From IMG/VR virus record IMGVR_UViG_3300005549_000002, positions 1 through 64,000 of that record: DNA of 64,000 nucleotides. One strand, 5' to 3'. Each line of letters opens with the position of its first letter. Within the stretch, counting starts at the first letter, position 1. The notes under the pieces were generated by a model that was not told the origin of the DNA, made no database searches, and saw nothing but the letters and a program-made list of their open reading frames with translations. Positions 55,678-64,000 of the stretch are shown here, in pieces. The position numbers and the translations under genes were made by a program. The DNA comes from a virus.

Positions 55678-56642
55678 CCGAGGAGTGGGTGCCGTTCCAG
55701 AAACGCCTCGCGAAGGGGGCGAAGCGTTCGCTGCCGCGGGGGGTGCGCTTCGTGCTGCTCGAGCTCGCTCTTGAGGCGCGGCAGCGCGCCGGGACCATCG
55801 AGCTACCCCTCGGGTGGACGACCGAGAAGGCCGTCCACGATCTCCTCGGCGGCAACAAAAAAGAGATCAACCAGGCGCTCCGAGAGTTCACAAAACCGGA
55901 CGCAAGTGGAGTCCAAGTCGTTCAAATTGAACGAGATGACACCAAGCACAGACTAACTTTTTGCAAGTGGTCGCAATTTTCCGGGCCCAAGTCGAGCACG
56001 TCTCGCGTGCAACTTTTCCGCGAGCGGAGGAAAAACGCCGACTTAGCTGGCGATGAAACGCAGGGCGACGTTTCCGAACGAAACGGCGAAACGCTCTACA
56101 GTACAGAACAGAATAGAACAGTAGAGAACAAACCCCCCCTACCCCCCGAGGGGGAAGAAGAGGGCGACCCTAGTTCACCGCCCGAGCCGGTCGTGCACGA
56201 CGGCGGTCGCAAGACGACCTACGACCAAGCGTGGCGCCTCTGGCGGGAATTGTACGAGGCGAGCCGACGCCGGTACGGCAAGTACGTCGAGGTGTTCGTG
56301 CAGGACGACCGCGTCGTGCAGCGGCTCGCGCACCGCGCCGAGGAGCTCGCCGAGGGCAACGCGGCGCGCACGGCGGCGCTCCTGCGCCATTGGTTCGTGA
56401 GCTTCCTGCGCGACGACGGCGACATGAGCTGTCACGTCAACGCGCGGCACCCCCTTCGCCTGCTCGAGCGACGACTGCCGACGTACGGCGATCTGCCGAG
56501 GCCCGCATCGGTGACGCGCATCAAGGCGCCGCGCCCCGCCGAGCCGCCGCCGCTGTCGCAAGAAGAACATCTCGCCGCCGTCGAGCGCGCGCGCGCCATC
56601 GCACGGGGCATCGGCGATCCGAAGAAAGGATCGACCGCATGA
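55674..56642 (+). CDS. Putative replication initiator
   Basis: Upstream of DnaB; KSSTSRVQLFRER and TEQNRTVENKPPLPP linker typical of phage initiators. Confidence 0.6.
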   Translation: MTEEWVPFQKRLAKGAKRSLPRGVRFVLLELALEARQRAGTIELPLGWTTEKAVHDLLGGNKKEINQALREFTKPDASGVQVVQIERDDTKHRLTFCKWSQFSGPKSSTSRVQLFRERRKNADLAGDETQGDVSERNGETLYSTEQNRTVENKPPLPPEGEEEGDPSSPPEPVVHDGGRKTTYDQAWRLWRELYEASRRRYGKYVEVFVQDDRVVQRLAHRAEELAEGNAARTAALLRHWFVSFLRDDGDMSCHVNARHPLRLLERRLPTYGDLPRPASVTRIKAPRPAEPPPLSQEEHLAAVERARAIARGIGDPKKGSTA

Positions 56643-58072
56643 CGGCAGCGCGCGATCGCTACGCCGAGGACCGCCAGGCGCCCGTCGCTGGGCGTATTCC
56701 CCAGCACGATCTCGACGCCGAGGCGGCGGTGCTGTCGGCCATGCTGCTCGAGCAAGAGGCTGCCGATCTCGTCATTCCCATCTTGCGCGCCGAGCACTTT
56801 TACTCCGAAGCGAATCGCCGCATCTACGAAGCCGCGCTCGAGCTCGTGCACGAGGGCAAGCCCATCGACGTCGTGACCGTCGCGGGGCGCCTTCGCGACA
56901 AGGACAGGCTCGCGCAGGTCGGCGGCAGTGCGTACTTGGCAGGGCTCGTCGACGCCGTCCCGTCCGTCGCGCACATCGAAACGTACGCCGCGACGATTGT
57001 CGACAAGGCGCGCCTGCGCGCGCTCTGCACGCTTTGCCAGACCGTCGCCGCGGAAGCTTACGGGCACCGAGGACCTGCAGCGGAGCTCATTGAGACCGCC
57101 GAGCGCGGCATCTTCGATCTGTCGAGCCAAGACACGAGCCACGACTTCGTCGACATCGGCGAGCCGGTCGGCGCTGCGTTCGACCACCTGATGGATCTCG
57201 CCCGCCGAGGCGAGCGCATGGTCGGCCAGTCGACCGGGTTTTTCCGCCTCGATTCGAAGACGGCGGGCCTGCACGACGGCGATCTCACCATCGTCGCCGC
57301 GCGCCCTGGCATGGGCAAAACGTCGCTCGTGCTCGACATCGCGCAGCACGTCGCGGGGCTCGACGTCGACCCGCTGCGCGGCGTTGCCATCTTCTCGCTC
57401 GAGATGCCGAAGGAGCAGCTCGCCATGCGGATGATGTGCTCGCGCGCGAGCGTCTCGGTGAACCGTCTTCGCCACGGGCACATCTCGGGCGACGAGTGGG
57501 ACCGCCTCGCGCTCGCAGCGAACGAGCTTCGCCAGATGCCGATCTTCATCCTCGACAAGCCGGGGCTCACGCTCATCCAATTGCGCAGCGGCCTACGGAA
57601 ACTCATCCGAGAAAAGAAACGCGCGGGCACGCTGATCCGCGTCGTCGCCGTCGACTACCTGCAGCTCATGCACGGCGCCGGAAAATCGCGCGAAGAAGTC
57701 ATCGCTGGGCTGTCGGCGGGGCTGAAAGAGATTGCCAAGGAATTCGAGCTGCCCGTCGTCGCGCTCGCGCAGCTCAACCGCGCCCCCGAAACGCGCGGCG
57801 GCAAGGACAAGCGCCCGCAGCTTTCGGATTTGCGCGAGTCGGGCGCCGTCGAGCAGGACGCGGACAACGTCATCTTCGTTTACCGCGAGGACTACTACGA
57901 CAAGCGCACCGAGAAAAAAGATCTCGCCGAGCTCATCGTGGCCAAACAGCGCAATGGCCCGACGGGCAGAACGCTCTGCCGCTTTCGCGGCCCCTTCACG
58001 CGATTCGAAAACCTCGCGAGCGGCGAGGAGCCCGACGACTCCGACGAACCCGACGACGACAGCGCAGCATAA
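56639..58072 (+). CDS. dnaB: Replicative DNA helicase
   Basis: AEAAVL, AARPGMGKT, FSLEM, VDYLQLM, QLNR, SDLRESGAVEQDAD, KQRNGPTG. Confidence 0.95.
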   Translation: MTAARDRYAEDRQAPVAGRIPQHDLDAEAAVLSAMLLEQEAADLVIPILRAEHFYSEANRRIYEAALELVHEGKPIDVVTVAGRLRDKDRLAQVGGSAYLAGLVDAVPSVAHIETYAATIVDKARLRALCTLCQTVAAEAYGHRGPAAELIETAERGIFDLSSQDTSHDFVDIGEPVGAAFDHLMDLARRGERMVGQSTGFFRLDSKTAGLHDGDLTIVAARPGMGKTSLVLDIAQHVAGLDVDPLRGVAIFSLEMPKEQLAMRMMCSRASVSVNRLRHGHISGDEWDRLALAANELRQMPIFILDKPGLTLIQLRSGLRKLIREKKRAGTLIRVVAVDYLQLMHGAGKSREEVIAGLSAGLKEIAKEFELPVVALAQLNRAPETRGGKDKRPQLSDLRESGAVEQDADNVIFVYREDYYDKRTEKKDLAELIVAKQRNGPTGRTLCRFRGPFTRFENLASGEEPDDSDEPDDDSAA

Positions 58073-58090
58073 CCCAAGGAGAGCCCCAAA

Positions 58091-58576
58091 ATGAAACCGA
58101 TCCTTCATCGTGTTGGCGAGAAACTCACCGCAGGCGAGCGCGACAAACTGCTTATCGAACTCGCCGAGGCGCGGCTCGAGTGGACGCGCATCAAGGACGA
58201 GAAACGCGAAGAAGACCGCACCTACAACGAGCAGATGAACCTGCTCGACGACAAGATCCAGCTGCTCGCCGAGTCCGCGCGCGACAATAAGAAATACGAG
58301 GACGTCGAGGTGCGGCTCGAGCCCGACGACGTGGCGGAAGAGATCACGATCTACCGCCTCGACAACGACGAGAAGATCCTGACGCGCCCGATGGACCCGG
58401 ACGAGTGCGACGAGGCGGCGAAGCGGCGCAAGAACCCGACGCTGCCGTTCGTCGGCGCCGCCAAGCGAAAAACCATCTACGACGAGCCGCCCGATCGCCT
58501 GAAACACAACGGGCAGGAGCTGCAGAAGGTCAAGCGCGCGAAGGGGAGGGGCAAGGGCAAGGAGGTGCGGCCGTGA
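58091..58576 (+). CDS. Hypothetical protein
   Basis: AAGGAG RBS; charged coiled coil; YRLDNDEKILTRPM. Confidence 0.65.
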   Translation: MKPILHRVGEKLTAGERDKLLIELAEARLEWTRIKDEKREEDRTYNEQMNLLDDKIQLLAESARDNKKYEDVEVRLEPDDVAEEITIYRLDNDEKILTRPMDPDECDEAAKRRKNPTLPFVGAAKRKTIYDEPPDRLKHNGQELQKVKRAKGRGKGKEVRP

Positions 58577-59502
58577 ACTTCGCCGTCGTGATCTACCACG
58601 AGCACTGCGTCGACGGTTTCACCGCCGCGTGGGTCGCGTGGTCGCAGCTCGGCGACGGGGCAGCGTACGTGCCCGCAAAATACGGGAGCAAGCCGCCCGA
58701 CGTCGCGGGCAAGGACGTACTCGTGCTCGACTTCAGCTACCCGCGCGAGGTGCTGCTCGACATGGCGGGCAAGGCGCGCACGCTGCGCGTCCTCGATCAC
58801 CACGCGAGCGCGCAACGCAACCTCGCCGGGCTCACCTTCTGCAAATTCGACATGGAGCGCAGCGGCGCGGGGCTCGCTTGGGACGAGCTCTGTCCCGACG
58901 CGCCGCGCCCGCTGCTCGTCAACCTCGTCGAGGATCGCGATCTCTGGCGCTTCAAACTGATGGACTCGAAAGCGCTGAGCGCGTGGATCAGCGTGCAGCC
59001 GCGCGAGTTCGAACGCTGGGACGAGCTCGAGGTAGAGCTCCTTGGCGACTATGCCGGCTGCGTCGCCAAGGGCAACGCGATCCTCGATCACATCGCGGCG
59101 TACATCGACGCGACGGCGAAGAACGCGCGCATGATGGACGTGCTCGATCACTACGTGCCGGTCGTCAACGCGCCCGGCATGATGGCGTCTGAGCTCGTCG
59201 GGCACCTCGCCGAGAATGCGGATTTTGCGGTGGGGTGGTTTCAGCGCGTCGACGGCCGCTACCAATATTCGCTGCGCTCGCGAGGCGACGTCGACGTCGC
59301 CGAGATTGCCGAGACGTTCGGCGGCGCGGGGCACCGGGGCGCGGCGGGTTTCGATTCCATCATGCCGCCCTCGTGGCTGTTCGACGACAAGCCGCGCGAG
59401 CGCGACACCGACAGACCGCCGGCGCAAGGCGAGGAGCCGCTCTCGCCCGAGTACATCGGAAAACTCGTCGGCGTCGACCGCGGCAGGGAGGGTGCGCCGT
59501 GA
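58573..59502 (+). CDS. DHH/DHHA1 phosphoesterase
   Basis: IYH..CVDG, LDFS, LDHH, DRDLW, SLRS and GGAGHRGAAG motifs. Confidence 0.85.
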   Translation: MNFAVVIYHEHCVDGFTAAWVAWSQLGDGAAYVPAKYGSKPPDVAGKDVLVLDFSYPREVLLDMAGKARTLRVLDHHASAQRNLAGLTFCKFDMERSGAGLAWDELCPDAPRPLLVNLVEDRDLWRFKLMDSKALSAWISVQPREFERWDELEVELLGDYAGCVAKGNAILDHIAAYIDATAKNARMMDVLDHYVPVVNAPGMMASELVGHLAENADFAVGWFQRVDGRYQYSLRSRGDVDVAEIAETFGGAGHRGAAGFDSIMPPSWLFDDKPRERDTDRPPAQGEEPLSPEYIGKLVGVDRGREGAP

Positions 59503-59629
59503 GCCCGTGGGTCTGGAAGTGCTGGCGGCTTGCATGGACGGAGTTCGGCGACATGCGGCAGGGCGAGATGAGCAGCGGCGGCGGCAACGTCTGGCGGCGC
59601 GTCGTTTTCGGCCTCTGGTGGAGGACGTC

Positions 59630-59983
59630 ATGAGGGTCATCTACATCGCGGGACCGTTTCGCGGCGCAAGCACGTGGGACATCGAGTGCAACGTACGGCG
59701 CGCGGAAGCGGTCGCGCTCGAAGTCGCCAAGCTCGGCGCGATGCCGCTCTGTCCGCACACCAACACGCGCTTTTTCCACGGGCAGCTCGACGACGCGTTC
59801 TGGCTCGGCGGCACGCTCGAGCTCATGCGCCGGTGCGATGCGTTGCTCCTGCTCCCCGACTGGGAGCGCTCGTCGGGCACGCGCGGCGAGAAGACGGCGG
59901 CGGAGGGCACCAGCATGCCCATCTTCTCGAGCCTCGGCGATCTCGAATGGTGGCTGAAGAACGACGGGAGGGAAGTCGGATGA
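59630..59983 (+). CDS. DUF4406/nucleoside deoxyribosyltransferase-like protein
   Basis: IYIAGPF, CPH, CDALLLLPDWERSSGTRGE. Confidence 0.75.
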   Translation: MRVIYIAGPFRGASTWDIECNVRRAEAVALEVAKLGAMPLCPHTNTRFFHGQLDDAFWLGGTLELMRRCDALLLLPDWERSSGTRGEKTAAEGTSMPIFSSLGDLEWWLKNDGREVG

Positions 59984-60219
59984 GCGCCAAATGCAATTCG
60001 TGCGATGCGCCCATCATCTGGGCGCTGACGGAGAACGGCAAGCGCATGCCCGTCGACGCCGAGCCCGTGCGCGATGGCAATATCGTGCTCGAGCACCATG
60101 GCCAACGCGTCACCGCCATCGTGCGCGACGCGATGCTGCCGGGCCTCGAGCCGCTCTACAAATCCCATTTCGCAACGTGCCCGAACGCGAGCACGCATCG
60201 AAGGACGACAGGAAAGTGA
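59980..60219 (+). CDS. Small zinc-binding phage protein
   Basis: CNSC..IIWALT..GKRMPVD...SHFATCP. Confidence 0.7.
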   Translation: MSAKCNSCDAPIIWALTENGKRMPVDAEPVRDGNIVLEHHGQRVTAIVRDAMLPGLEPLYKSHFATCPNASTHRRTTGK

Positions 60220-60589
60220 TGACAAGCGCCGAAACCTGGTTCGAGCTCGCCGAGCGCGAGTTCGAAAGCATCGTCGACGCCGAGGACGACGCGGCGAGGG
60301 CGGCGGTCGGCCATGCTCGATCTGCACGACGGCAACGGCTTCGCGTCGAAGCTCTCGCAGGAAACCGCCGAGGAATACCGCAAGAGCATGCGCATCGTGA
60401 AGGAGCTGCAGTGCATCGACGCGGCCGCGCAAGAGGAGCCGACAGCGCCACCGACGGGGCTCGCATGAACCCCGGGCTCCTGCTCGTTTGCACGTTCTTT
60501 GTCGCCGGCCCCCTCGTCGGCATCCTGCTCGCGCTGCTCGAGATCGCTGCCGAGCTCCGAATCCACAACAACAACCGACGGGGCGAGCC

Positions 60590-60802
60590 ATGAGCAAACG
60601 AAGCGAGGACACGGAGGTGCTCGAACAGATTCGCCGCAAGGGATGCCGCTGGCCACACTGCAGGCAAGAAGCGAAGGTCACCAGAGTTTCTGCGCTTGAC
60701 GCCTCCGACGGATTCTCGGTGCCCCTCTGCGTCGAGCATGCCGCTGAGGGCGATCGCCTCGGATATTGGGAACCGTACGAAACGGAGCCGAGGGAACCAT
60801 GA
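60590..60802 (+). CDS. Small Cys-containing hypothetical protein
   Basis: ATGA overlaps; CRWPHC...LCVEH. Confidence 0.5.
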   Translation: MSKRSEDTEVLEQIRRKGCRWPHCRQEAKVTRVSALDASDGFSVPLCVEHAAEGDRLGYWEPYETEPREP

Positions 60803-61428
60803 AAGACTGGACACGACCGCGGCAGACCAAGCTCGCGCTCATCCCGGGGCAGCGCGTCGACGACGACGACGCCACCATTCCGGCGCTCGGCGATTCGATG
60901 CCGATCGCGACGAGGGCGCCGCCGAACCCGCCGCAGGTCGTCTTCACCGTGCCGGGCGATCCCGTCCCGTGCTCGCGCCCGCGCGCGGTGCCGCTCATGC
61001 GCGACGGCAAGGCCGTCCTCGGGCCCGGCGGGCGGCCCATCATCACCGCCTTCACGCCGACGGAAACCCGTCACTACGAGCAGCACGTCCAGCGCCACGC
61101 GCGCGCGGCGTTCGAGCATTGCGACGACTGGCGGCGCGTCTACGCGAAGAAAGAGGCGGTGCGCATCCACATGCACATCGTCCGCCGGCACTGGCGCGGC
61201 GACTGGGACAACTTCGCGAAAGGCATCGCCGACGGCATTGCCAATAGCGGGCTCGTCTTCTTCAACGACAACCGGATCACCGAGGCGCTCATCTCGATGC
61301 GCACCGATCCGGACGACGAACCGCGCGTCGAGGTGAAGGTCGAGCGCGCGACCAAGGATCTGCGGATGCAATTGTGGATGCAAATCGCGCTCGAGAACGG
61401 CTGGACGCCGCCGGCGAGGCCCGCGTGA
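60799..61428 (+). CDS. rusA: RusA-like Holliday junction resolvase
   Basis: VPGDPVP..RPR, GDWDNFAKGIADG, NDNRI, PRVEV. Confidence 0.8.
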   Translation: MKDWTRPRQTKLALIPGQRVDDDDATIPALGDSMPIATRAPPNPPQVVFTVPGDPVPCSRPRAVPLMRDGKAVLGPGGRPIITAFTPTETRHYEQHVQRHARAAFEHCDDWRRVYAKKEAVRIHMHIVRRHWRGDWDNFAKGIADGIANSGLVFFNDNRITEALISMRTDPDDEPRVEVKVERATKDLRMQLWMQIALENGWTPPARPA

Positions 61429-61748
61429 TGGCGCTCTCCCCCTTTTCCATGCACAAGGCTCGCCAGCGCGCGCTCGACGCCGCGCTCGAAGCCAAGCGCG
61501 GGCTCGATGCGACCAGGTGGGTGGTCACCGTGGGCGTTTTCATCGGGCAGCTCGCGCGCGTCTGGAACGAGACGCTCACCGGCGCTCGCCTGGCGCTCTG
61601 CCTCGGCGTGCCCTTTTTTTCCTTGCTCGTGATGTCGAGCGCGCAAGCCATCTGGGCCCGGCGGGCGGCGCGGCGGATCGAAACGTACTGGCCGCTGCCG
61701 CCGCTGCCGAAGCTGCACCTCGGAGACGACGATGAGAACGACGAATGA
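61428..61748 (+). CDS. Two-TM membrane protein
   Basis: TGATG overlap; two hydrophobic stretches. Confidence 0.5.
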   Translation: MALSPFSMHKARQRALDAALEAKRGLDATRWVVTVGVFIGQLARVWNETLTGARLALCLGVPFFSLLVMSSAQAIWARRAARRIETYWPLPPLPKLHLGDDDENDE

Positions 61749-61980
61749 CATTTACGACAAGCTCGCCGCGCACATCAAGCACTGGCGCAAGATCAAGGGC
61801 AAGGGCTTTAACGCCAACCCGTTCGCCGAGCTGAACGAAAAGGTGCGCTGGCTCTGCTCGTACGCCGACGGACAGGAGAAAGTGCTGCTGCGATTCCTCT
61901 TGCGGCTCGAAACGATCGGATTGGAGCAGACGAAACGCGCGCTGAAACCACGCGCGACGAAAGGAAGGGGAGCGACGTAA
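61732..61980 (+). CDS. Hypothetical basic protein
   Basis: GGAG RBS; 82 aa; directly upstream of the RAMP-like gene. Confidence 0.55.
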   Translation: MRTTNDIYDKLAAHIKHWRKIKGKGFNANPFAELNEKVRWLCSYADGQEKVLLRFLLRLETIGLEQTKRALKPRATKGRGAT

Positions 61981-62019
61981 GCAGCACGCAAAACGGTAAC
62001 GGCAAGGAGGATAGGGACC

Positions 62020-62592
62020 ATGCAAAAGATAAAACTGCGACTGAACGGTGTGCGACCTCTCATGATGCACAACGGGCGACTCGCCGACCCGATGAACGAA
62101 TACGTGCGCGAGATGAAGAAGATTACCGGCAAGGGCAAAAAGAAAACGGACGATGACCTTCTCAAGCTGCGCTGGCTCGAATGGCGTGGTGGCCTCTACG
62201 TCGATGAGAAGGGTGCGCCGTGCATGCCCGGGGACAACATCCACGCAGCGCTGGTCGAGGGTGCGCGCAAGCAGCGCCTCGGCAAAGACGTCGATGCGGC
62301 GATCATGGTGGATGAGCCCGAGTTCCCGCTCAAGTACGAGGGAACGCGAGACGTGCAAAAGCTCTACGACGATCCGCGGTTCGTCGACGTGCGTGGCGCC
62401 GTCGTTGGCAAAGCGCGCATCATGCGAACGCGGCCGATCTTCCGGAATTGGTCCCTCGACATCGAGGTGAATTTCGACCCATCGCTCGTGAACGAGGCGC
62501 AGGTCATCGAGGCTGCACGCGCATGCGGAGAGCAGATCGGTCTCGGCGATAACACGCCGCGCTTTGGTCGCTTCTTGGTCGAGCAGATTTGA
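62020..62592 (+). CDS. Stand-alone RAMP/Cas7-like RNA-binding protein
   Basis: N-terminal strand KIKLRLNGVRPLMMH, CMPGDNIHAAL (cf. RAMP iPgss.kGal), strand WSLDIEVNF, C-terminal glycine-rich loop GEQIGLGDNTPRFGRFLV; AAGGAGG RBS. Confidence 0.7.
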   Translation: MQKIKLRLNGVRPLMMHNGRLADPMNEYVREMKKITGKGKKKTDDDLLKLRWLEWRGGLYVDEKGAPCMPGDNIHAALVEGARKQRLGKDVDAAIMVDEPEFPLKYEGTRDVQKLYDDPRFVDVRGAVVGKARIMRTRPIFRNWSLDIEVNFDPSLVNEAQVIEAARACGEQIGLGDNTPRFGRFLVEQI

Positions 62593-62596
62593 GCAT

Positions 62597-62997
62597 GGCG
62601 GTGCGTGGCGCGGCGATGCGTGTCATGGTCGGACCAGGTCGGGTCAGGCGACGCAAGGCATGGAGTTCTCGGCTATCGGAAGGTGGCCGTGAGCTCTGTG
62701 GTTGGGTTTGGCGTGGCGGTGCACGTCAAGGCGGGTCTCGGCAGGGCGCAGCATGGCAAGGAGCTGTCCGCGATCGAGAGATTGCGAACAGCACTGTTGG
62801 TGCGGTCGGGATGGGTCTGGTTGGGCAGGGCCAGGATGGGCATGTCCAGTCCCGTCATGGCTCGGTTTGGCAGGAGTTTGGCAAGGAGCGATCGCCCGTT
62901 CGAGAGGATGGGCGGTTGCACTATGGCGGTGCGTGGCCTGGCTCTGTTGGCCGTGGCGCGATCGGTCGCGGAAGGGCAGGGCGCGGCAAGTTGAGGA
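62597..62997 (+). ncRNA. Array of four GGY-NN pentamer tracts separated by GNRA hairpins
   Basis: Tracts 62597-62661, 62700-62759, 62799-62884, 62925-62989; hairpins 62663-62696, 62763-62792, 62888-62919. Confidence 0.85.
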
Positions 62998-63233
62998 GCT
63001 GTCAACAGTCGACGAGCCGAACTCGTGGTGAACGCGTGGGGACGTCTAAGCTCGGGCCTGACGACGTCCGCGCGGTACTCGGGCTCCACGATGTCGGCGC
63101 CATGCGCAAGGACATAGCTGAGCTGTTCGGAATAGCCGGCAAGTCCGTGGAGCGAATCGTCTATTTGGCGTCACGTGGAAGCACATCCACGAGGAGCGGA
63201 GCCGATGACCGCGAAGAAGCGCAAACCGAGTGA
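62991..63233 (+). CDS. Small HTH protein or remnant, like the C-terminal HTH of phage HNH nucleases
   Basis: RGERVGTSKLGPDDVRAV...KDIAELFGIAGKSVERIV; start codon uncertain (TTG 62991). Confidence 0.4.
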   Translation: MRSCQQSTSRTRGERVGTSKLGPDDVRAVLGLHDVGAMRKDIAELFGIAGKSVERIVYLASRGSTSTRSGADDREEAQTE

Positions 63234-63387
63234 GGTGGAGGTGGTTGCGATGGCGATGTGGGCGCAAGGCAACTGGCATCATATGGCCCCGCCGCAGATT
63301 GAATGGCGACAGCGGCCGCTGGGCACAAGGGCGATGTATCGCGGCTTCGCTCGCGCATTCCTCCGCGCACTGAGGGGGGCTACTTGA
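63205..63387 (+). CDS. Small hypothetical protein
   Basis: GGAG RBS; MTAKKRKPSEVEVVAMAMW. Confidence 0.5.
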   Translation: MTAKKRKPSEVEVVAMAMWAQGNWHHMAPPQIEWRQRPLGTRAMYRGFARAFLRALRGAT

Positions 63388-63406
63388 CCGCCGCCGAAAC
63401 CAGACG

Positions 63407-63547
63407 CGCGTTCGAGAGACTGCGGGCAGCGCCTGTGGTGTCGGTCGCTTGGCGGGGTTGGCTCTGGTCCGGCATGCTCGGGCATGTCCCGGCACGGCTC
63501 CGGCAGGTCCGGGCATGGCACGGCGTGGCAAGGCGAGGGCCTTCGCC
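63407..63547 (+). ncRNA. Fifth, detached GGY-NN unit
   Basis: GAGA-capped hairpin 63407-63424, 16 pentamers at 63451-63531 ending GGCAA, short hairpin 63532-63547. Confidence 0.75.
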
Positions 63548-63567
63548 GGCGTTGAAAGGAATCGACA

Positions 63568-64000
63568 ATGAACGAATCGGTCAAAGTAGCACTTGTTCAC
63601 CCGATAGACTTCGAGTCGATCCGAAAGGGCGACGCCATCGGGCAAGCACAGATCGAGATCATTTCGCAGGTGCGCTACTCGGAAGATCCCGAGCGGTATC
63701 GAATCGAGCAGATGCAACTGAAAGGACAGATTGAGCAGCATCGACCCGATCTCGCAGTGGTCATGTCACGGCGATGCCTGCGCGTGCTCACCGATCCGGA
63801 GCTCGTCGGCTATCGGCAAACACGTCAGGAGCGCGACGTTCGATCGCTGAAACGCAACGTTGCCCTCGGCGCTCGCGTCGACCGATCGCAGCTTGGTGAG
63901 ACCGAAGTGAGACGTGCCGATTGTCTCGACATGCACATCGCGGTGAGCGCCATCGAAGCGGATCGGAATCTGCGGGAGTCGAGAAAGAAGATTCGTGAAC
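63568..64000 (+). CDS. Hypothetical protein, candidate partner of the RAMP/array module (runs off the window)
   Basis: GAAAGGA RBS, ATG 63568, open for 144 codons: MNESVKVALVHPIDFESIRKGDAIG... Confidence 0.7.
   Translation, partial: MNESVKVALVHPIDFESIRKGDAIGQAQIEIISQVRYSEDPERYRIEQMQLKGQIEQHRPDLAVVMSRRCLRVLTDPELVGYRQTRQERDVRSLKRNVALGARVDRSQLGETEVRRADCLDMHIAVSAIEADRNLRESRKKIRE

What the first reader, a model, noticed from the sequence alone, without database searches (positions are those of the whole stretch)
62662..62924. Sequence-divergent, structure-conserved GNRA hairpins delimit the array units
Seen: each of tracts 1-3 ends GGA and is followed by a 12-14-bp hairpin closed by C-G on a GNRA loop (GGAA, GAGA, GAGA), then (A/T)CT(G/A)T. 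Stem sequences differ but pairing is kept, with many G-U pairs that work only on the + strand. A fourth, shorter GAGA hairpin (63407-63424) precedes unit 5. Inference: this is selection on RNA structure; the hairpins may be processing sites, end caps or filament stops, the reverse of CRISPR where repeat sequence is fixed.
Basis: partly seen in the sequence, partly recalled or inferred. Interest (0 to 1): 0.75.

Follow-up and report, generated by a model that had tools for sequence, protein, structure and literature searches.

The report
Hairpin tails of phage VIPR guide RNAs
The hairpins are real, structure-selected 3' tails of the guide RNAs of a phage VIPR system, an RNA-guided DNA-silencing system first described in 2026 preprints, so this is a new example with a simpler tail, not a new kind of element.

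Summary
Three hairpins (62665-62694, 62763-62792, 62888-62919; 12/13, 12/13 and 14/14 pairs; loops GGAA, GAGA, GAGA) each follow a G-rich tract. They fold far better than shuffles and better on the + strand.

The tracts are YNNGG pentamer repeats, the strongest period-5 G signal in the 72.6-kb phage genome. The upstream 190-aa ORF matches the solved SUSP1 Vipr protein (E 2.9e-55 and 1e-30). The locus is therefore a VIPR system (bioRxiv 10.64898/2026.04.26.720920), whose guide RNAs (vrRNAs) are YNNGG repeats plus a structured 3' tail.

All 9 inter-tract gaps of the only close relative (L002) carry the same hairpin. Across the 12 hairpins, 93.6% of cells pair against 64% in shuffles, and 12 of 13 pairs show compensatory changes. 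A covariance model built from L002 alone finds exactly these three sites in the window.

The fourth, short hairpin is a chimeric remnant. Its 3' arm pairs 11/13 with a 5' arm right after tract 4, about 400 nt upstream.

Most likely role: a sequence-independent cap, filament stop and end-definer. RNA ends and processing are untested. Verdict: new member of a known kind, with a plain GNRA hairpin instead of the SUSP1 pseudoknot.

The parts
62020..62592 (+). vipr gene (190 aa), a Cas7-like RAMP that binds one YNNGG repeat per protomer
   Evidence: phrog_4652 E 1.4e-56. PDB 36pp_D 'SUSP1 Vipr protein' E 2.9e-55 by profile and 1e-30 by single sequence over residues 2-188. AF2 model pLDDT 94.9, closest solved folds Csm3/Cas7. 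H17, R138 and D177 conserved.
62594..62664 (+). vrRNA1 guide tract: 14 YNNGG units, then A (ends GGA). It starts 1 nt after the vipr stop codon.
62665..62694 (+). tail hairpin 1: 12 of 13 pairs, GGAA loop
   Evidence: model R1 48.3 bits, E 3.6e-07
62697..62762 (+). vrRNA2 guide tract: 13 units, then A
62763..62792 (+). tail hairpin 2: 12 of 13 pairs, GAGA loop
   Evidence: R1 44.4 bits
62796..62887 (+). vrRNA3 guide tract: 15 units in register (62796-62870), then a tandemly duplicated 3' handle of about 11 nt (62865-62888)
62888..62919 (+). tail hairpin 3: 14 of 14 pairs, GAGA loop
   Evidence: R1 43.2 bits
62922..62997 (+). vrRNA4 guide tract: 15 units, then A
62998..63010 (+). 5' arm of a split tail hairpin. 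It pairs 11 of 13 with 63418-63430.
   Evidence: arm matrix and the minimum-energy fold of 62991-63445. Only 58 of 72,599 13-mers in the genome pair this well with that arm.
63036..63387 (+). two small overlapping ORFs enclosed by the split hairpin: 63036-63233 (65 aa, weak HTH_7 hit below cut-off) and 63205-63387 (60 aa). Absent from L002.
63407..63430 (+). short GAGA hairpin (63407-63424, 6 of 7 pairs) inside a chimeric tail remnant. Its 5' part and loop resemble hairpin 3, and its 3' arm (63418-63430) resembles hairpin 2.
   Evidence: (family D18, 93%)
63434..63538 (+). vrRNA5 guide tract, about 18-20 units with register shifts
63532..63547 (+). short terminal hairpin of the last unit (6 pairs, GGCC loop). 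Weak on its own. The surrounding stretch is conserved with L002.
63568..64000 (+). candidate vipr-accessory gene (159 aa; ends at 64047 of the full record, beyond the window)
   Evidence: relatives lie next to vipr or its arrays in L002's contig (held three times, as L002, L087 and L102) and in 10 further loci. No Pfam family. No similarity to the genes after vipr in wV8 or LESphi2.

Best explanation
The hairpins are the structured 3' tails of individual guide RNAs (vrRNAs) in a VIPR (Viral Interference Programmable Repeat) locus of a 72.6-kb phage.

The locus is probably transcribed together with vipr as one + strand RNA. Vipr protomers coat each YNNGG tract, one protomer per pentamer. They hold the GGY bases and present the NN bases for gapped pairing with target DNA; this mechanism is published for the SUSP1 homologue.

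Each tract ends in a fixed handle (GGC-AA-GG-A). In that handle the base after the last GG is a purine, which the published pyrimidine pocket of the next protomer would exclude. A 13-14-bp helix with a GNRA loop follows directly.

Inference: the purine plus the helix stop the filament and set its register. They cap the RNA 3' end against 3' exonucleases. They leave only 2-3 unprotected nucleotides before the next tract, and that is where units are separated. Only the shape of the stem matters, so stem sequences drift or are pushed apart, while the loop, closing pair, base pair and flanks stay fixed.

Shown here: the locus is a VIPR, the hairpins are real, they covary, they favour the + strand, and they lie 3' of tracts. 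Inferred only: the capping, stopping and processing roles.
For: Identity of the system:
- The Vipr homologue is established, and the Cas7/Csm3-like fold.
- The published GGY contacts H17, R138 and D177 (section 5 of the structure preprint) are conserved.
- Across 70 pentamer units, position 1 is a pyrimidine in 93%, positions 4 and 5 are G in 89% and 80%, and the NN positions are near uniform.
- The four strongest period-5 G peaks of the whole genome lie in the array.
- 76 of 84 related viral loci have a period-5 G peak of 3.0 or more on the vipr strand, and none of the 84 reaches that on the other strand. 82 of 84 have called tracts on the vipr strand.

Hairpins:
- All 3 of 3 gaps between the window's tracts 1-4 and all 9 of 9 gaps in L002 hold the hairpin.
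- 93.6% of cells pair against 64.1% in shuffles (0 of 500 reach it). 12 of 13 pairs change on both sides. Slid controls give 31-53%.
- Model R1, built from L002 only, gives three hits of 43-48 bits in 64 kb on both strands. The next best is 14.2 bits.

3' association:
- Tract 1 starts 1 nt after the vipr stop codon, with no hairpin before it.
- Family-wide, the 40 nt after the last tract of an array are more structured than controls (p 0.004). The 40 nt before the first tract are not (p 0.82).

Purine stop: A follows the last GG in 11 of 12 units, against 4-11% A at that position inside tracts.

Published parallel: vrRNA is a repeat tract plus a 3' tail with conserved structure (discovery preprint, Results read). 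A 3' pseudoknot caps the RNA, and the protomers next to it are the best ordered (structure preprint, passages).
Against: - No RNA data exist for this sequence, so no 5' or 3' end is mapped.
- Tract 4 lacks a local canonical hairpin, and tract 5 has only a weak 6-bp one. A long GNRA hairpin is therefore not strictly required.
- The published tail is a pseudoknot described as invariable in sequence, so its role may not transfer to this hairpin.
- The window's Vipr has N and T where SUSP1 has W178 and R179, both GGY contacts. Details of recognition, including purine exclusion, may differ.
- The 12 hairpins come from only two genomes, and w1/b1 and w2/b2 are positional counterparts. The rows are not fully independent.
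- No natural target was found for any guide. Activity of this particular locus is unproven.
Confidence: 0.72

Rival explanations
1. The hairpins are excised processing modules, not retained tails. A host structure-specific RNase cuts at the base of the helix and releases tail-less guide tracts. The candidate is RNase P, reading the 13-bp helix as a tRNA acceptor/T-arm minihelix; RNase III is an alternative.
For: Other VIPR arrays carry self-cleaving hammerheads between guides (discovery preprint, Results and the fig. S19 legend). In locus L006 (Vipr 51% identical) two tails look like tRNA minihelices: a 6-7-bp stem enclosing a T-arm with a GGTTCGATTCC-type loop. One of them has a sub-threshold match to mascRNA-menRNA (20.4 bits, E 0.28). 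The window's helices are 13-14 bp with a conserved G-C at the base and R-C after it. From general knowledge, this is about the length of the acceptor/T-arm stack.
Against: No CCA-like trailer follows the helix, and there is no T-loop. ARAGORN finds no tRNA in L006, and the Rfam match is far below its gathering score. In SUSP1 the tail stays on the mature RNA and is seen in the cryo-EM maps. The helix is too short for a typical RNase III site, and the extension of the helix into the flanks is not conserved in L002.
Confidence: 0.12
2. Vipr itself, or the accessory protein, recognises the hairpin and cleaves at its base, as Cas6 does at CRISPR repeat hairpins. The hairpin would then be a processing handle.
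For: Vipr is a RAMP related to the Cas5/6/7 group. The layout is guide, then hairpin, then 2 nt, then the next guide, which mirrors crRNAs that keep a 3' hairpin. The loop, the closing C-G and the U.G beneath it are conserved, which could mark a protein contact.
Against: The closest folds are Cas7/Csm3 backbone subunits, not Cas6. No nuclease activity of Vipr was mentioned in the passages and sections I read. Tail types differ widely between clades with similar Vipr proteins, which argues against a specific protein-hairpin lock.
Confidence: 0.1
3. The inverted repeats act at the DNA level, as recombination or cassette-exchange sites, or as cruciforms, and RNA structure is incidental.
For: The interior of the array is not alignable between two phages whose Vipr proteins are 94% identical. 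The element before unit 5 is a chimera of two hairpin types, and a two-ORF cassette sits inside a split hairpin.
Against: 30 of 146 paired cells are G.U, which become C.A mismatches on the other strand. The reverse complements of hairpins 1 and 3 fold at -9 to -10 against -25 to -28 kcal/mol. Family-wide the + strand is more stable (Wilcoxon p 1.3e-12). Divergent stems give recombination little homology to work with.
Confidence: 0.04
4. The hairpins are intrinsic terminators or attenuators that meter transcription along the array, or the region encodes a protein and the hairpins are chance.
For: They are stable GC-rich hairpins within one transcription unit. An open frame of 129 aa (62605-62994) crosses the array.
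Against: No T-run follows any hairpin, and the terminator scan finds none in the array. The periodicity is 5, not 3. The array has no conserved translation between the two close phages. Covariation excludes chance.
Confidence: 0.02

Closest known systems
vrRNA 3' tail of type II VIPR systems (Escherichia phage SUSP1 clade), bioRxiv 10.64898/2026.04.26.720920 and 10.64898/2026.04.26.720927
   Same: A Vipr homologue over its full length. Tracts of 13-15 YNNGG units against the published 9-16. Each tract is followed at once by a structured element on the same strand. Units sit in tandem next to vipr in a phage genome. In the related phage wV8 the tail stems also covary between units.
   Different: The SUSP1-clade tail is about 40 nt and forms a hairpin plus pseudoknot. 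The preprint calls it invariable, and in wV8 two of the four tails are identical over the 55 nt printed. Here the tail is a plain 13-14-bp GNRA hairpin with no room for a pseudoknot, and the stems are only 30-60% identical within one array. The window's Vipr is about 34% identical to Felixounavirus Viprs. The accessory gene is unrelated by BLASTP. I could not see the supplementary figures (S9, S16-S20) or the data files, which may already show this tail class.
Pseudomonas VIPR clade (P. fulva prophage in the preprints; Pseudomonas phage LESphi2 examined here)
   Same: Long hairpin tails with stems that differ between units and no obvious pseudoknot. The structure preprint notes that the P. fulva complex lacks the pseudoknot landmark.
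   Different: LESphi2 tails are longer, composite hairpins with other loops. The arrays lie upstream of vipr. Vipr is 41% identical. Model R1 does not detect these tails.
CRISPR repeat hairpins and the Cas6-bound 3' handle of type I/III crRNAs (general knowledge)
   Same: A RAMP backbone protein bound periodically along a guide, and a hairpin at the 3' end of each unit that marks unit boundaries in a multi-guide transcript.
   Different: No repeat of fixed sequence, no spacers of contiguous sequence, and no cas1/cas2. Periodicity is 5 nt, not 6. The guide information sits in two of every five bases. No Cas6-like fold is among the top hits.
Hammerhead-interspersed and staggered VIPR arrays (discovery preprint, Results and legends of figs S18-S19)
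   Same: A structured or positional device between guides that defines unit ends.
   Different: No ribozyme is found here. Rfam gives nothing relevant at E <= 10 across 58000-64000. There are 33-35 nt between the window's tracts 1-4, not overlapping units.

Membership tests
VIPR system | A Vipr protein: a minimal RAMP (RRM core, G-loop, thumb) homologous to the SUSP1 Vipr | tested here: met
   PDB 36pp_D E 2.9e-55 by profile and 1e-30 by single sequence, residues 2-188 of both. Model pLDDT 94.9 with Csm3/Cas7 as the nearest folds. The G-loop GLGDxxPRFGRF is conserved.
VIPR system | Conserved GGY-contact residues (H17, R138, D177, W178, R179 in SUSP1) | tested here: inconclusive
   H17, R138 and D177 are identical. 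Positions 178 and 179 are N and T instead of W and R. Relatives mostly carry W, Y or F, then R or T, at these positions (pattern).
VIPR system | vrRNA tracts: tandem YNNGG repeats (at least 4; typically 9-16) next to vipr on its strand, with variable NN | tested here: met
   Five tracts of 13 to about 20 units. Composition Y 93%, GG 89%/80%, NN near uniform. Strongest period-5 signal of the genome. The NN content is not alignable with L002.
VIPR system | A structured 3' tail after the repeat tract | tested here: met
   Three canonical hairpins with covariation. Tract 4 has a split tail and tract 5 a weak short one.
VIPR system | A vipr-accessory (vap) gene in the locus | tested here: inconclusive
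   A 159-aa ORF after the array has relatives beside vipr arrays in L002's contig and 10 further loci. It has no Pfam family and no similarity to the genes after vipr in wV8 or LESphi2.
VIPR system | Viral or proviral context | tested here: met
   A virus record of 72,612 bases with 100-base terminal repeats. DnaB, RusA and a nucleoside deoxyribosyltransferase-like gene lie upstream.
VIPR system | vrRNAs expressed as RNAs of about 100 nt that co-purify with Vipr | not testable with these tools
   No RNA run holds the sequence (reported only as tried).
VIPR system | Guides match DNA targets by the 1-nt skip rule | tested here: inconclusive
   No match above shuffled-guide nulls in the phage's own genome or in L002's contig. 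No exact 10-unit match in viral contigs for guides 1-3, or in genome contigs for guide 2. Exact-match scans miss imperfect targets.
VIPR type II (SUSP1 / P. fulva type) | Placement in the published Vipr phylogeny together with vap1 | not testable with these tools
   The classification rests on the authors' tree and data files (method section read). Supplements are closed.
CRISPR array | Direct repeats of fixed sequence separated by unique contiguous spacers | tested here: not met
   The repeat searches find only loose families of 61-78% identity. The hairpins share 9-18 of 30 positions.
Intrinsic terminator | A GC-rich hairpin followed by a U-run | tested here: not met
   No terminator-like site in 62593-63560.
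Self-cleaving ribozyme spacer (hammerhead) | A match to a ribozyme covariance model between guides | tested here: not met
   No such Rfam match at E <= 10 in 58000-64000.

The most novel reading that the evidence does not exclude
VIPR tails are interchangeable, sequence-independent end modules: GNRA hairpin here, pseudoknot in SUSP1, tRNA-like minihelix in L006, hammerhead elsewhere. Their only shared job is to stop the Vipr filament and define RNA ends. In this clade the stems would be actively driven apart within an array. One driver would be avoiding recombination between units. Another would be escape from rival phages' vrRNAs, which the October 2026 preprint reports as aimed at the repeat-tail junction. 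If true, any stable helix placed after a GG-purine would serve as a tail, which would simplify the design of multi-guide arrays.
Probability: 0.25. Interest if true: 0.5.

Novelty: new member of a known kind. Interest (0 to 1): 0.33.

Why it matters
Preprints of April to October 2026 describe that system as VIPR, so the main finding is not new.

Four points remain:
- A tail class differs from the characterised pseudoknot. It shows by covariation that the tail needs shape, not sequence.
- A purine after the last GG, followed at once by a helix, is a plausible and testable filament-stop signal.
- The sections and passages of the three preprints that I read say nothing on how tandem units of this kind are separated. 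A locus with only 2-3 free nucleotides between a hairpin and the next guide is a clean place to test it.
- Tails appear to be modular across clades, which bears on building multi-guide VIPR arrays.

Tried and rejected
Searches that found nothing:
- Rfam (E <= 10) over 58000-64000 gave only weak, unrelated matches.
- Gathering-level Rfam over 20 related loci gave one tRNA and no ribozyme.
- A motif scan of viral contigs for this tail class returned 29 stretches. Only the three sites on L002's contig were real; the rest were chance matches in coding DNA.
- Protein-seeded scans for close relatives gave only L002's contig again and a 1.7-kb fragment in metagenome contigs. They gave nothing in genome contigs.
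- As a result the covariation rests on two genomes.

Target search by the 1-nt skip rule:
- Own genome and cross-targeting with L002's contig gave nothing above shuffled-guide nulls.
- Exact 10-unit patterns for guides 2, 1 and 3 in viral contigs, and for guide 2 in genome contigs, gave 0 hits each.

RNA evidence: no RNA holder is listed for the sequence.

Ideas rejected:
- Extension of the helix into the flanks as an RNase III site. It is seen for hairpin 1 but is not conserved in L002.
- The 129-aa and 214-aa frames across the array as genes. They have period 5 and are not conserved.
- The 159-aa ORF as a homologue of the wV8 or LESphi2 neighbour genes. There is no similarity.
- My first guess (TRAP-like or DNA-level binding sites) was dropped once the PDB match appeared.

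A coordinate slip (the 5' arm of unit 4 taken one base off) was corrected.

Limits of what I saw:
- Supplementary files of the preprints are closed. I saw only figure legends, so figs S9 and S16-S20 and data S4 may already show this clade or this tail type.

Papers, and how much I saw of each:
- 10.64898/2026.04.26.720920: outline, all of Results, Discussion, two methods sections, and passages.
- 10.64898/2026.04.26.720927: outline, section 5, and passages.
- 10.64898/2026.10.15.759431: abstract start and passages only.
- A full-text search for 'vrRNA' found 8 papers. Three are these preprints and one is a language-model preprint with a single mention, which I did not read.
Full report
**What is in the sequence.**
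The window is the first 64 kb of a 72,612-base virus record with 100-base terminal repeats. Replication-type genes lie upstream of the finding: DnaB at 56231-58072, a RusA-like resolvase, and a nucleoside deoxyribosyltransferase-like gene.

A 190-aa ORF ends at 62592. One base later a G-rich stretch begins and runs to about 63547. Read in steps of five, it consists of YNNGG units. Over 70 units the first position is C or T in 93%, positions 4 and 5 are G in 89% and 80%, and the two middle positions are close to uniform. A Fourier scan for period-5 G puts the four strongest peaks of the whole genome inside this stretch: 4.68, 3.75, 2.24 and 2.06, against a genome mean of 0.21 and a next-best peak of 1.78.

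There are five tracts:
- 62594-62663, 14 units.
- 62697-62761, 13 units.
- 62796-62887, 15 units plus a tandemly duplicated end.
- 62922-62996, 15 units.
- 63434-63538, about 18-20 units with register shifts.

- Hairpin 1 is at 62665-62694: 12 of 13 pairs, GGAA loop.
- Hairpin 2 is at 62763-62792: 12 of 13 pairs, GAGA loop.
- Hairpin 3 is at 62888-62919: 14 of 14 pairs, GAGA loop.
- All three are closed by C-G, and 8 of the 38 pairs are G.U.

With short flanks they fold at -28.5, -19.6 and -25.4 kcal/mol (z -6.3, -3.5, -5.1), and none of 300 shuffles is as stable. The reverse complements give -9.2, -17.7 and -10.0. The strand preference is therefore clear for hairpins 1 and 3 and slight for hairpin 2.

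**What the locus is.**
The ORF matches phrog_4652, a family of unknown function (E 1.4e-56). It has hundreds of relatives in viral and metagenomic data. A profile of 50 relatives matches one solved structure, 36pp chain D, named 'SUSP1 Vipr protein', at E 2.9e-55. The single sequence matches it at E 1e-30 over residues 2-188 of both proteins. The AlphaFold model is confident (pLDDT 94.9), and its nearest solved folds are Csm3/Cas7 backbone subunits of type III and VII CRISPR complexes.

A literature search on the name led to three 2026 preprints on VIPR, Viral Interference Programmable Repeat systems. The discovery preprint (10.64898/2026.04.26.720920; Results read) reports the following:
- The Vipr protein is phage-encoded.
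- vrRNAs consist of 9-16 YNNGG repeats, with GGY fixed and NN hypervariable.
- The NN bases pair with double-stranded DNA and skip every third target base.
- The result is transcriptional silencing of competing phages and satellites.

The structure preprint (10.64898/2026.04.26.720927; section 5 and passages) adds:
- One protomer binds per repeat.
- The two G are held by H17, D177, R138 and W178.
- The Y sits in a pocket of the next protomer that sterically excludes purines.
- A 3' pseudoknot caps the RNA.

The window's protein keeps H17, R138 and D177, but has N and T at positions 178 and 179. The locus meets the defining features that can be tested in silico. The hairpins of the finding sit where the published tail sits.

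**Association across relatives.**
In 84 related viral loci, 76 have a period-5 G peak of 3.0 or more on the vipr strand, beside the gene. None reaches 3.0 on the opposite strand. My tract caller finds tracts on the vipr strand in 82 of 84 loci and on the other strand in 5.

Of 139 inter-tract gaps of 25-70 nt, 113 are unique. Among these, 81% fold with six or more consecutive pairs, against 63% for their reverse complements and 42% for 339 control segments (Mann-Whitney p 2.7e-22; + against - strand, Wilcoxon p 1.3e-12).

The 40 nt after the last tract of an array are more structured than controls (p 0.004). The 40 nt before the first tract are not (p 0.82). Tract 1 of the window starts right after the stop codon. 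Together these place the structure on the 3' side of each guide.

**Covariation.**
Only one close relative could be fetched: L002, a contig whose Vipr is 94% identical. The same contig was met again as L087 and L102.

Its array holds ten tracts. All nine gaps between them carry the same design:
- a fixed handle ending in GG-A (GG-C in one unit);
- a 13-bp stem;
- a tetraloop, GNRA in 7 of 9 (GGAG and GATG in the other two);
- then R-C and the first unit of the next tract.

I aligned the 12 hairpins, three from the window and nine from L002. These are every canonical gap, with none dropped; for hairpin 3 the inner 13 pairs were used.
- 93.6% of 156 cells form standard pairs, against 64.1% in shuffles (0 of 500 reach the observed value).
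- 12 of 13 pairs have changes on both sides.
- Sliding the partner by 1-3 columns gives 31-53%.
- 30 of the 146 paired cells are G.U.
- Only the closing C-G never varies. The G-C at the base and the U.G under the closing pair are nearly fixed.

As a held-out test I built a covariance model from the nine L002 tails alone. I searched the whole window on both strands without filters. It returns exactly the three hairpins at 48.3, 44.4 and 43.2 bits (E 4e-07 to 3e-06), and the next hit scores 14.2 bits.

Caveats: there are two genomes only. Hairpins 1 and 2 have positional counterparts in L002 (26/30 and 23/30 identical). The rows are therefore partly related, although most of the nine L002 stems differ strongly from each other (12-20 of 30 identical).

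**How special this tail class is.**
The model finds one marginal match in 77 other loci: L020, 28 bits, E 0.014. The three tails of L020 are also divergent long stems, 12-14 bp, capped by GAAA or GGAA-type loops after a tract that ends in GG.

Other clades use other tails.
- Some have a constant CA-rich leader followed by a variable stem, for example L014. Others are nearly invariant, for example L009 and L010.
- In phage wV8, a SUSP1 relative, the tails fit a pseudoknot design with covarying stems, and two of the four are identical.
- Pseudomonas phage LESphi2 has long composite hairpins.
- Two tails in L006 look like tRNA minihelices.

Sequence-divergent, structure-conserved tails are therefore a family trait. 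The plain GNRA hairpin is one variant of it.

**The fourth hairpin.**
The 7-position stem at 63407-63424 pairs 6 of 7. It is not significant by energy, and the model did not list it at E <= 10.
- Its 5' part and loop are 13 of 14 identical to hairpin 3 (family D18).
- Its 3' arm (63418-63430) resembles that of hairpin 2.
- The 13 bases right after tract 4 (62998-63010) pair 11 of 13 with that 3' arm.
- The minimum-energy fold of 62991-63445 forms this long-range helix.
- Only 58 of 72,599 13-mers in the genome pair that well with the arm. One of them is hairpin 2's own 5' arm, so part of the fit comes from family resemblance.

Between the two arms lie two small ORFs, 63036-63233 and 63205-63387. 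The first has a weak helix-turn-helix hit below the cut-off. Neither is found in L002 or in any other fetched locus.

My reading is that the tail of unit 4 was split by an inserted cassette, or by recombination between units. The short hairpin would then be a remnant and not a 5' element of unit 5. This is inference.

Unit 5 ends in a weak 6-bp hairpin just before the ribosome-binding site of a 159-aa ORF. Relatives of that ORF sit beside vipr arrays in L002's contig and 10 further loci. It is the best candidate for the accessory gene. It has no Pfam family and no similarity to the corresponding genes of wV8 or LESphi2.

**Mechanism.**
Shown by others for SUSP1: Vipr coats the repeats and a structured 3' element caps the RNA.

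Shown here:
- The tail is under selection for pairing on the + strand.
- It follows a fixed handle.
- The base after the last GG is A in 11 of 12 units, against 4-11% A at that position inside tracts.

Inferred:
- A purine at the Y position cannot enter the next protomer's pocket, and a helix starts at the very next base. The filament therefore ends there and its register is set.
- By general knowledge of 3' exonucleases, the stable GNRA hairpin would protect the 3' end.
- Only 2-3 nucleotides stay exposed between the helix and the next coated tract, so separation of units would happen there.
- No promoter-like or terminator-like site lies in the array, which fits one transcript from vipr onward.

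Why the stems differ is open. Neutral drift under a shape-only constraint is the simplest reading. Two further ideas are avoidance of recombination between units, and escape from rival vrRNAs. The October 2026 preprint reports rival vrRNAs with footprints across the repeat-tail junction (passage).

**What argues against, or is missing.**
- No RNA data exist for this sequence (tried).
- Two of the five units lack the canonical tail.
- Positions 178 and 179 differ from SUSP1.
- No target was found. The phage's own genome and L002's contig give nothing above shuffled-guide nulls. Exact 10-unit patterns for three guides found nothing in the viral collection, and one guide found nothing in the genome collection. 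Exact scans would miss imperfect targets.
- The rival that tails are excised modules gains some colour from the tRNA-like tails of L006 and from the published hammerhead arrays. It has no direct support here.

**Novelty.**
The system and the idea of a structured vrRNA tail are in print as preprints. In the sections and passages I read, how type II-like tandem units are separated is not addressed: 'processing' occurs once in the discovery preprint and only for sonication time, and 'RNase' and 'tRNA' do not occur.

I could not see the supplements, which may show this clade. I therefore rate this a new member of a known kind, with a distinct, simpler tail.

Noticed in passing
L006:3630-3690 and L006:3760-3810: In this related viral locus (Vipr 51% identical) two vrRNA tails look like tRNA minihelices: a 6-7-bp outer stem encloses a T-arm with a GGTTCGATTCC-type loop. 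One has a sub-threshold Rfam match to mascRNA-menRNA (20.4 bits, E 0.28). ARAGORN calls no tRNA. This could mean unit separation by host tRNA-processing enzymes. 'tRNA' and 'RNase' do not occur in the main text of the discovery preprint.
   Followed up: partly
window 62998-63430: A two-ORF cassette (65 aa with a weak helix-turn-helix hit, and 60 aa) sits between the two arms of what looks like a split tail hairpin (11 of 13 pairs over about 400 nt). The closest relative's array has no such insert.
   Followed up: partly
window 62865-62888: The 3' handle of tract 3 is tandemly duplicated (period 11, 2.1 copies, 92% matches). This hints at slippage as one way that tracts change length.
   Followed up: no
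window 62594-62609 and 62922-62937: Tracts 1 and 4 start with the same three pentamer units (direct-repeat family D2), so they may share ancestry by duplication.
   Followed up: no
window 62020-62592, residues 178-179: The window's Vipr has N and T where SUSP1 Vipr has W178 (stacks on the second G) and R179 (holds the pyrimidine). Most relatives carry an aromatic residue at 178.
   Followed up: partly
window 63568-64000 (ORF ends at 64047 of the full record): This 159-aa ORF of no known family recurs beside vipr arrays in L002's contig and 10 further related loci. It is a candidate accessory gene of this clade, unrelated by BLASTP to the genes that follow vipr in wV8 and LESphi2.
   Followed up: partly
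window 62003-62722 and 63496-64010, compared with L002: Between two phages with 94% identical Vipr, only the gene, unit 1 and the last unit with the downstream gene align (80% and 72% nucleotide identity). The array interior differs entirely in content and unit number (5 against 10 tracts).
   Followed up: yes
L066, L052, L055, L075 (related loci): Some arrays have gaps of only 8-19 nt between tracts, too short for a hairpin tail. These may be the staggered arrays mentioned in the preprint.
   Followed up: no
phage records listed: Vipr relatives occur in 130 cultured-phage records. Most are Felixounavirus-like coliphages, but Mycobacterium phage LittleE, Gordonia phages and Pseudomonas phages also appear. 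All are annotated as hypothetical proteins.
   Followed up: no
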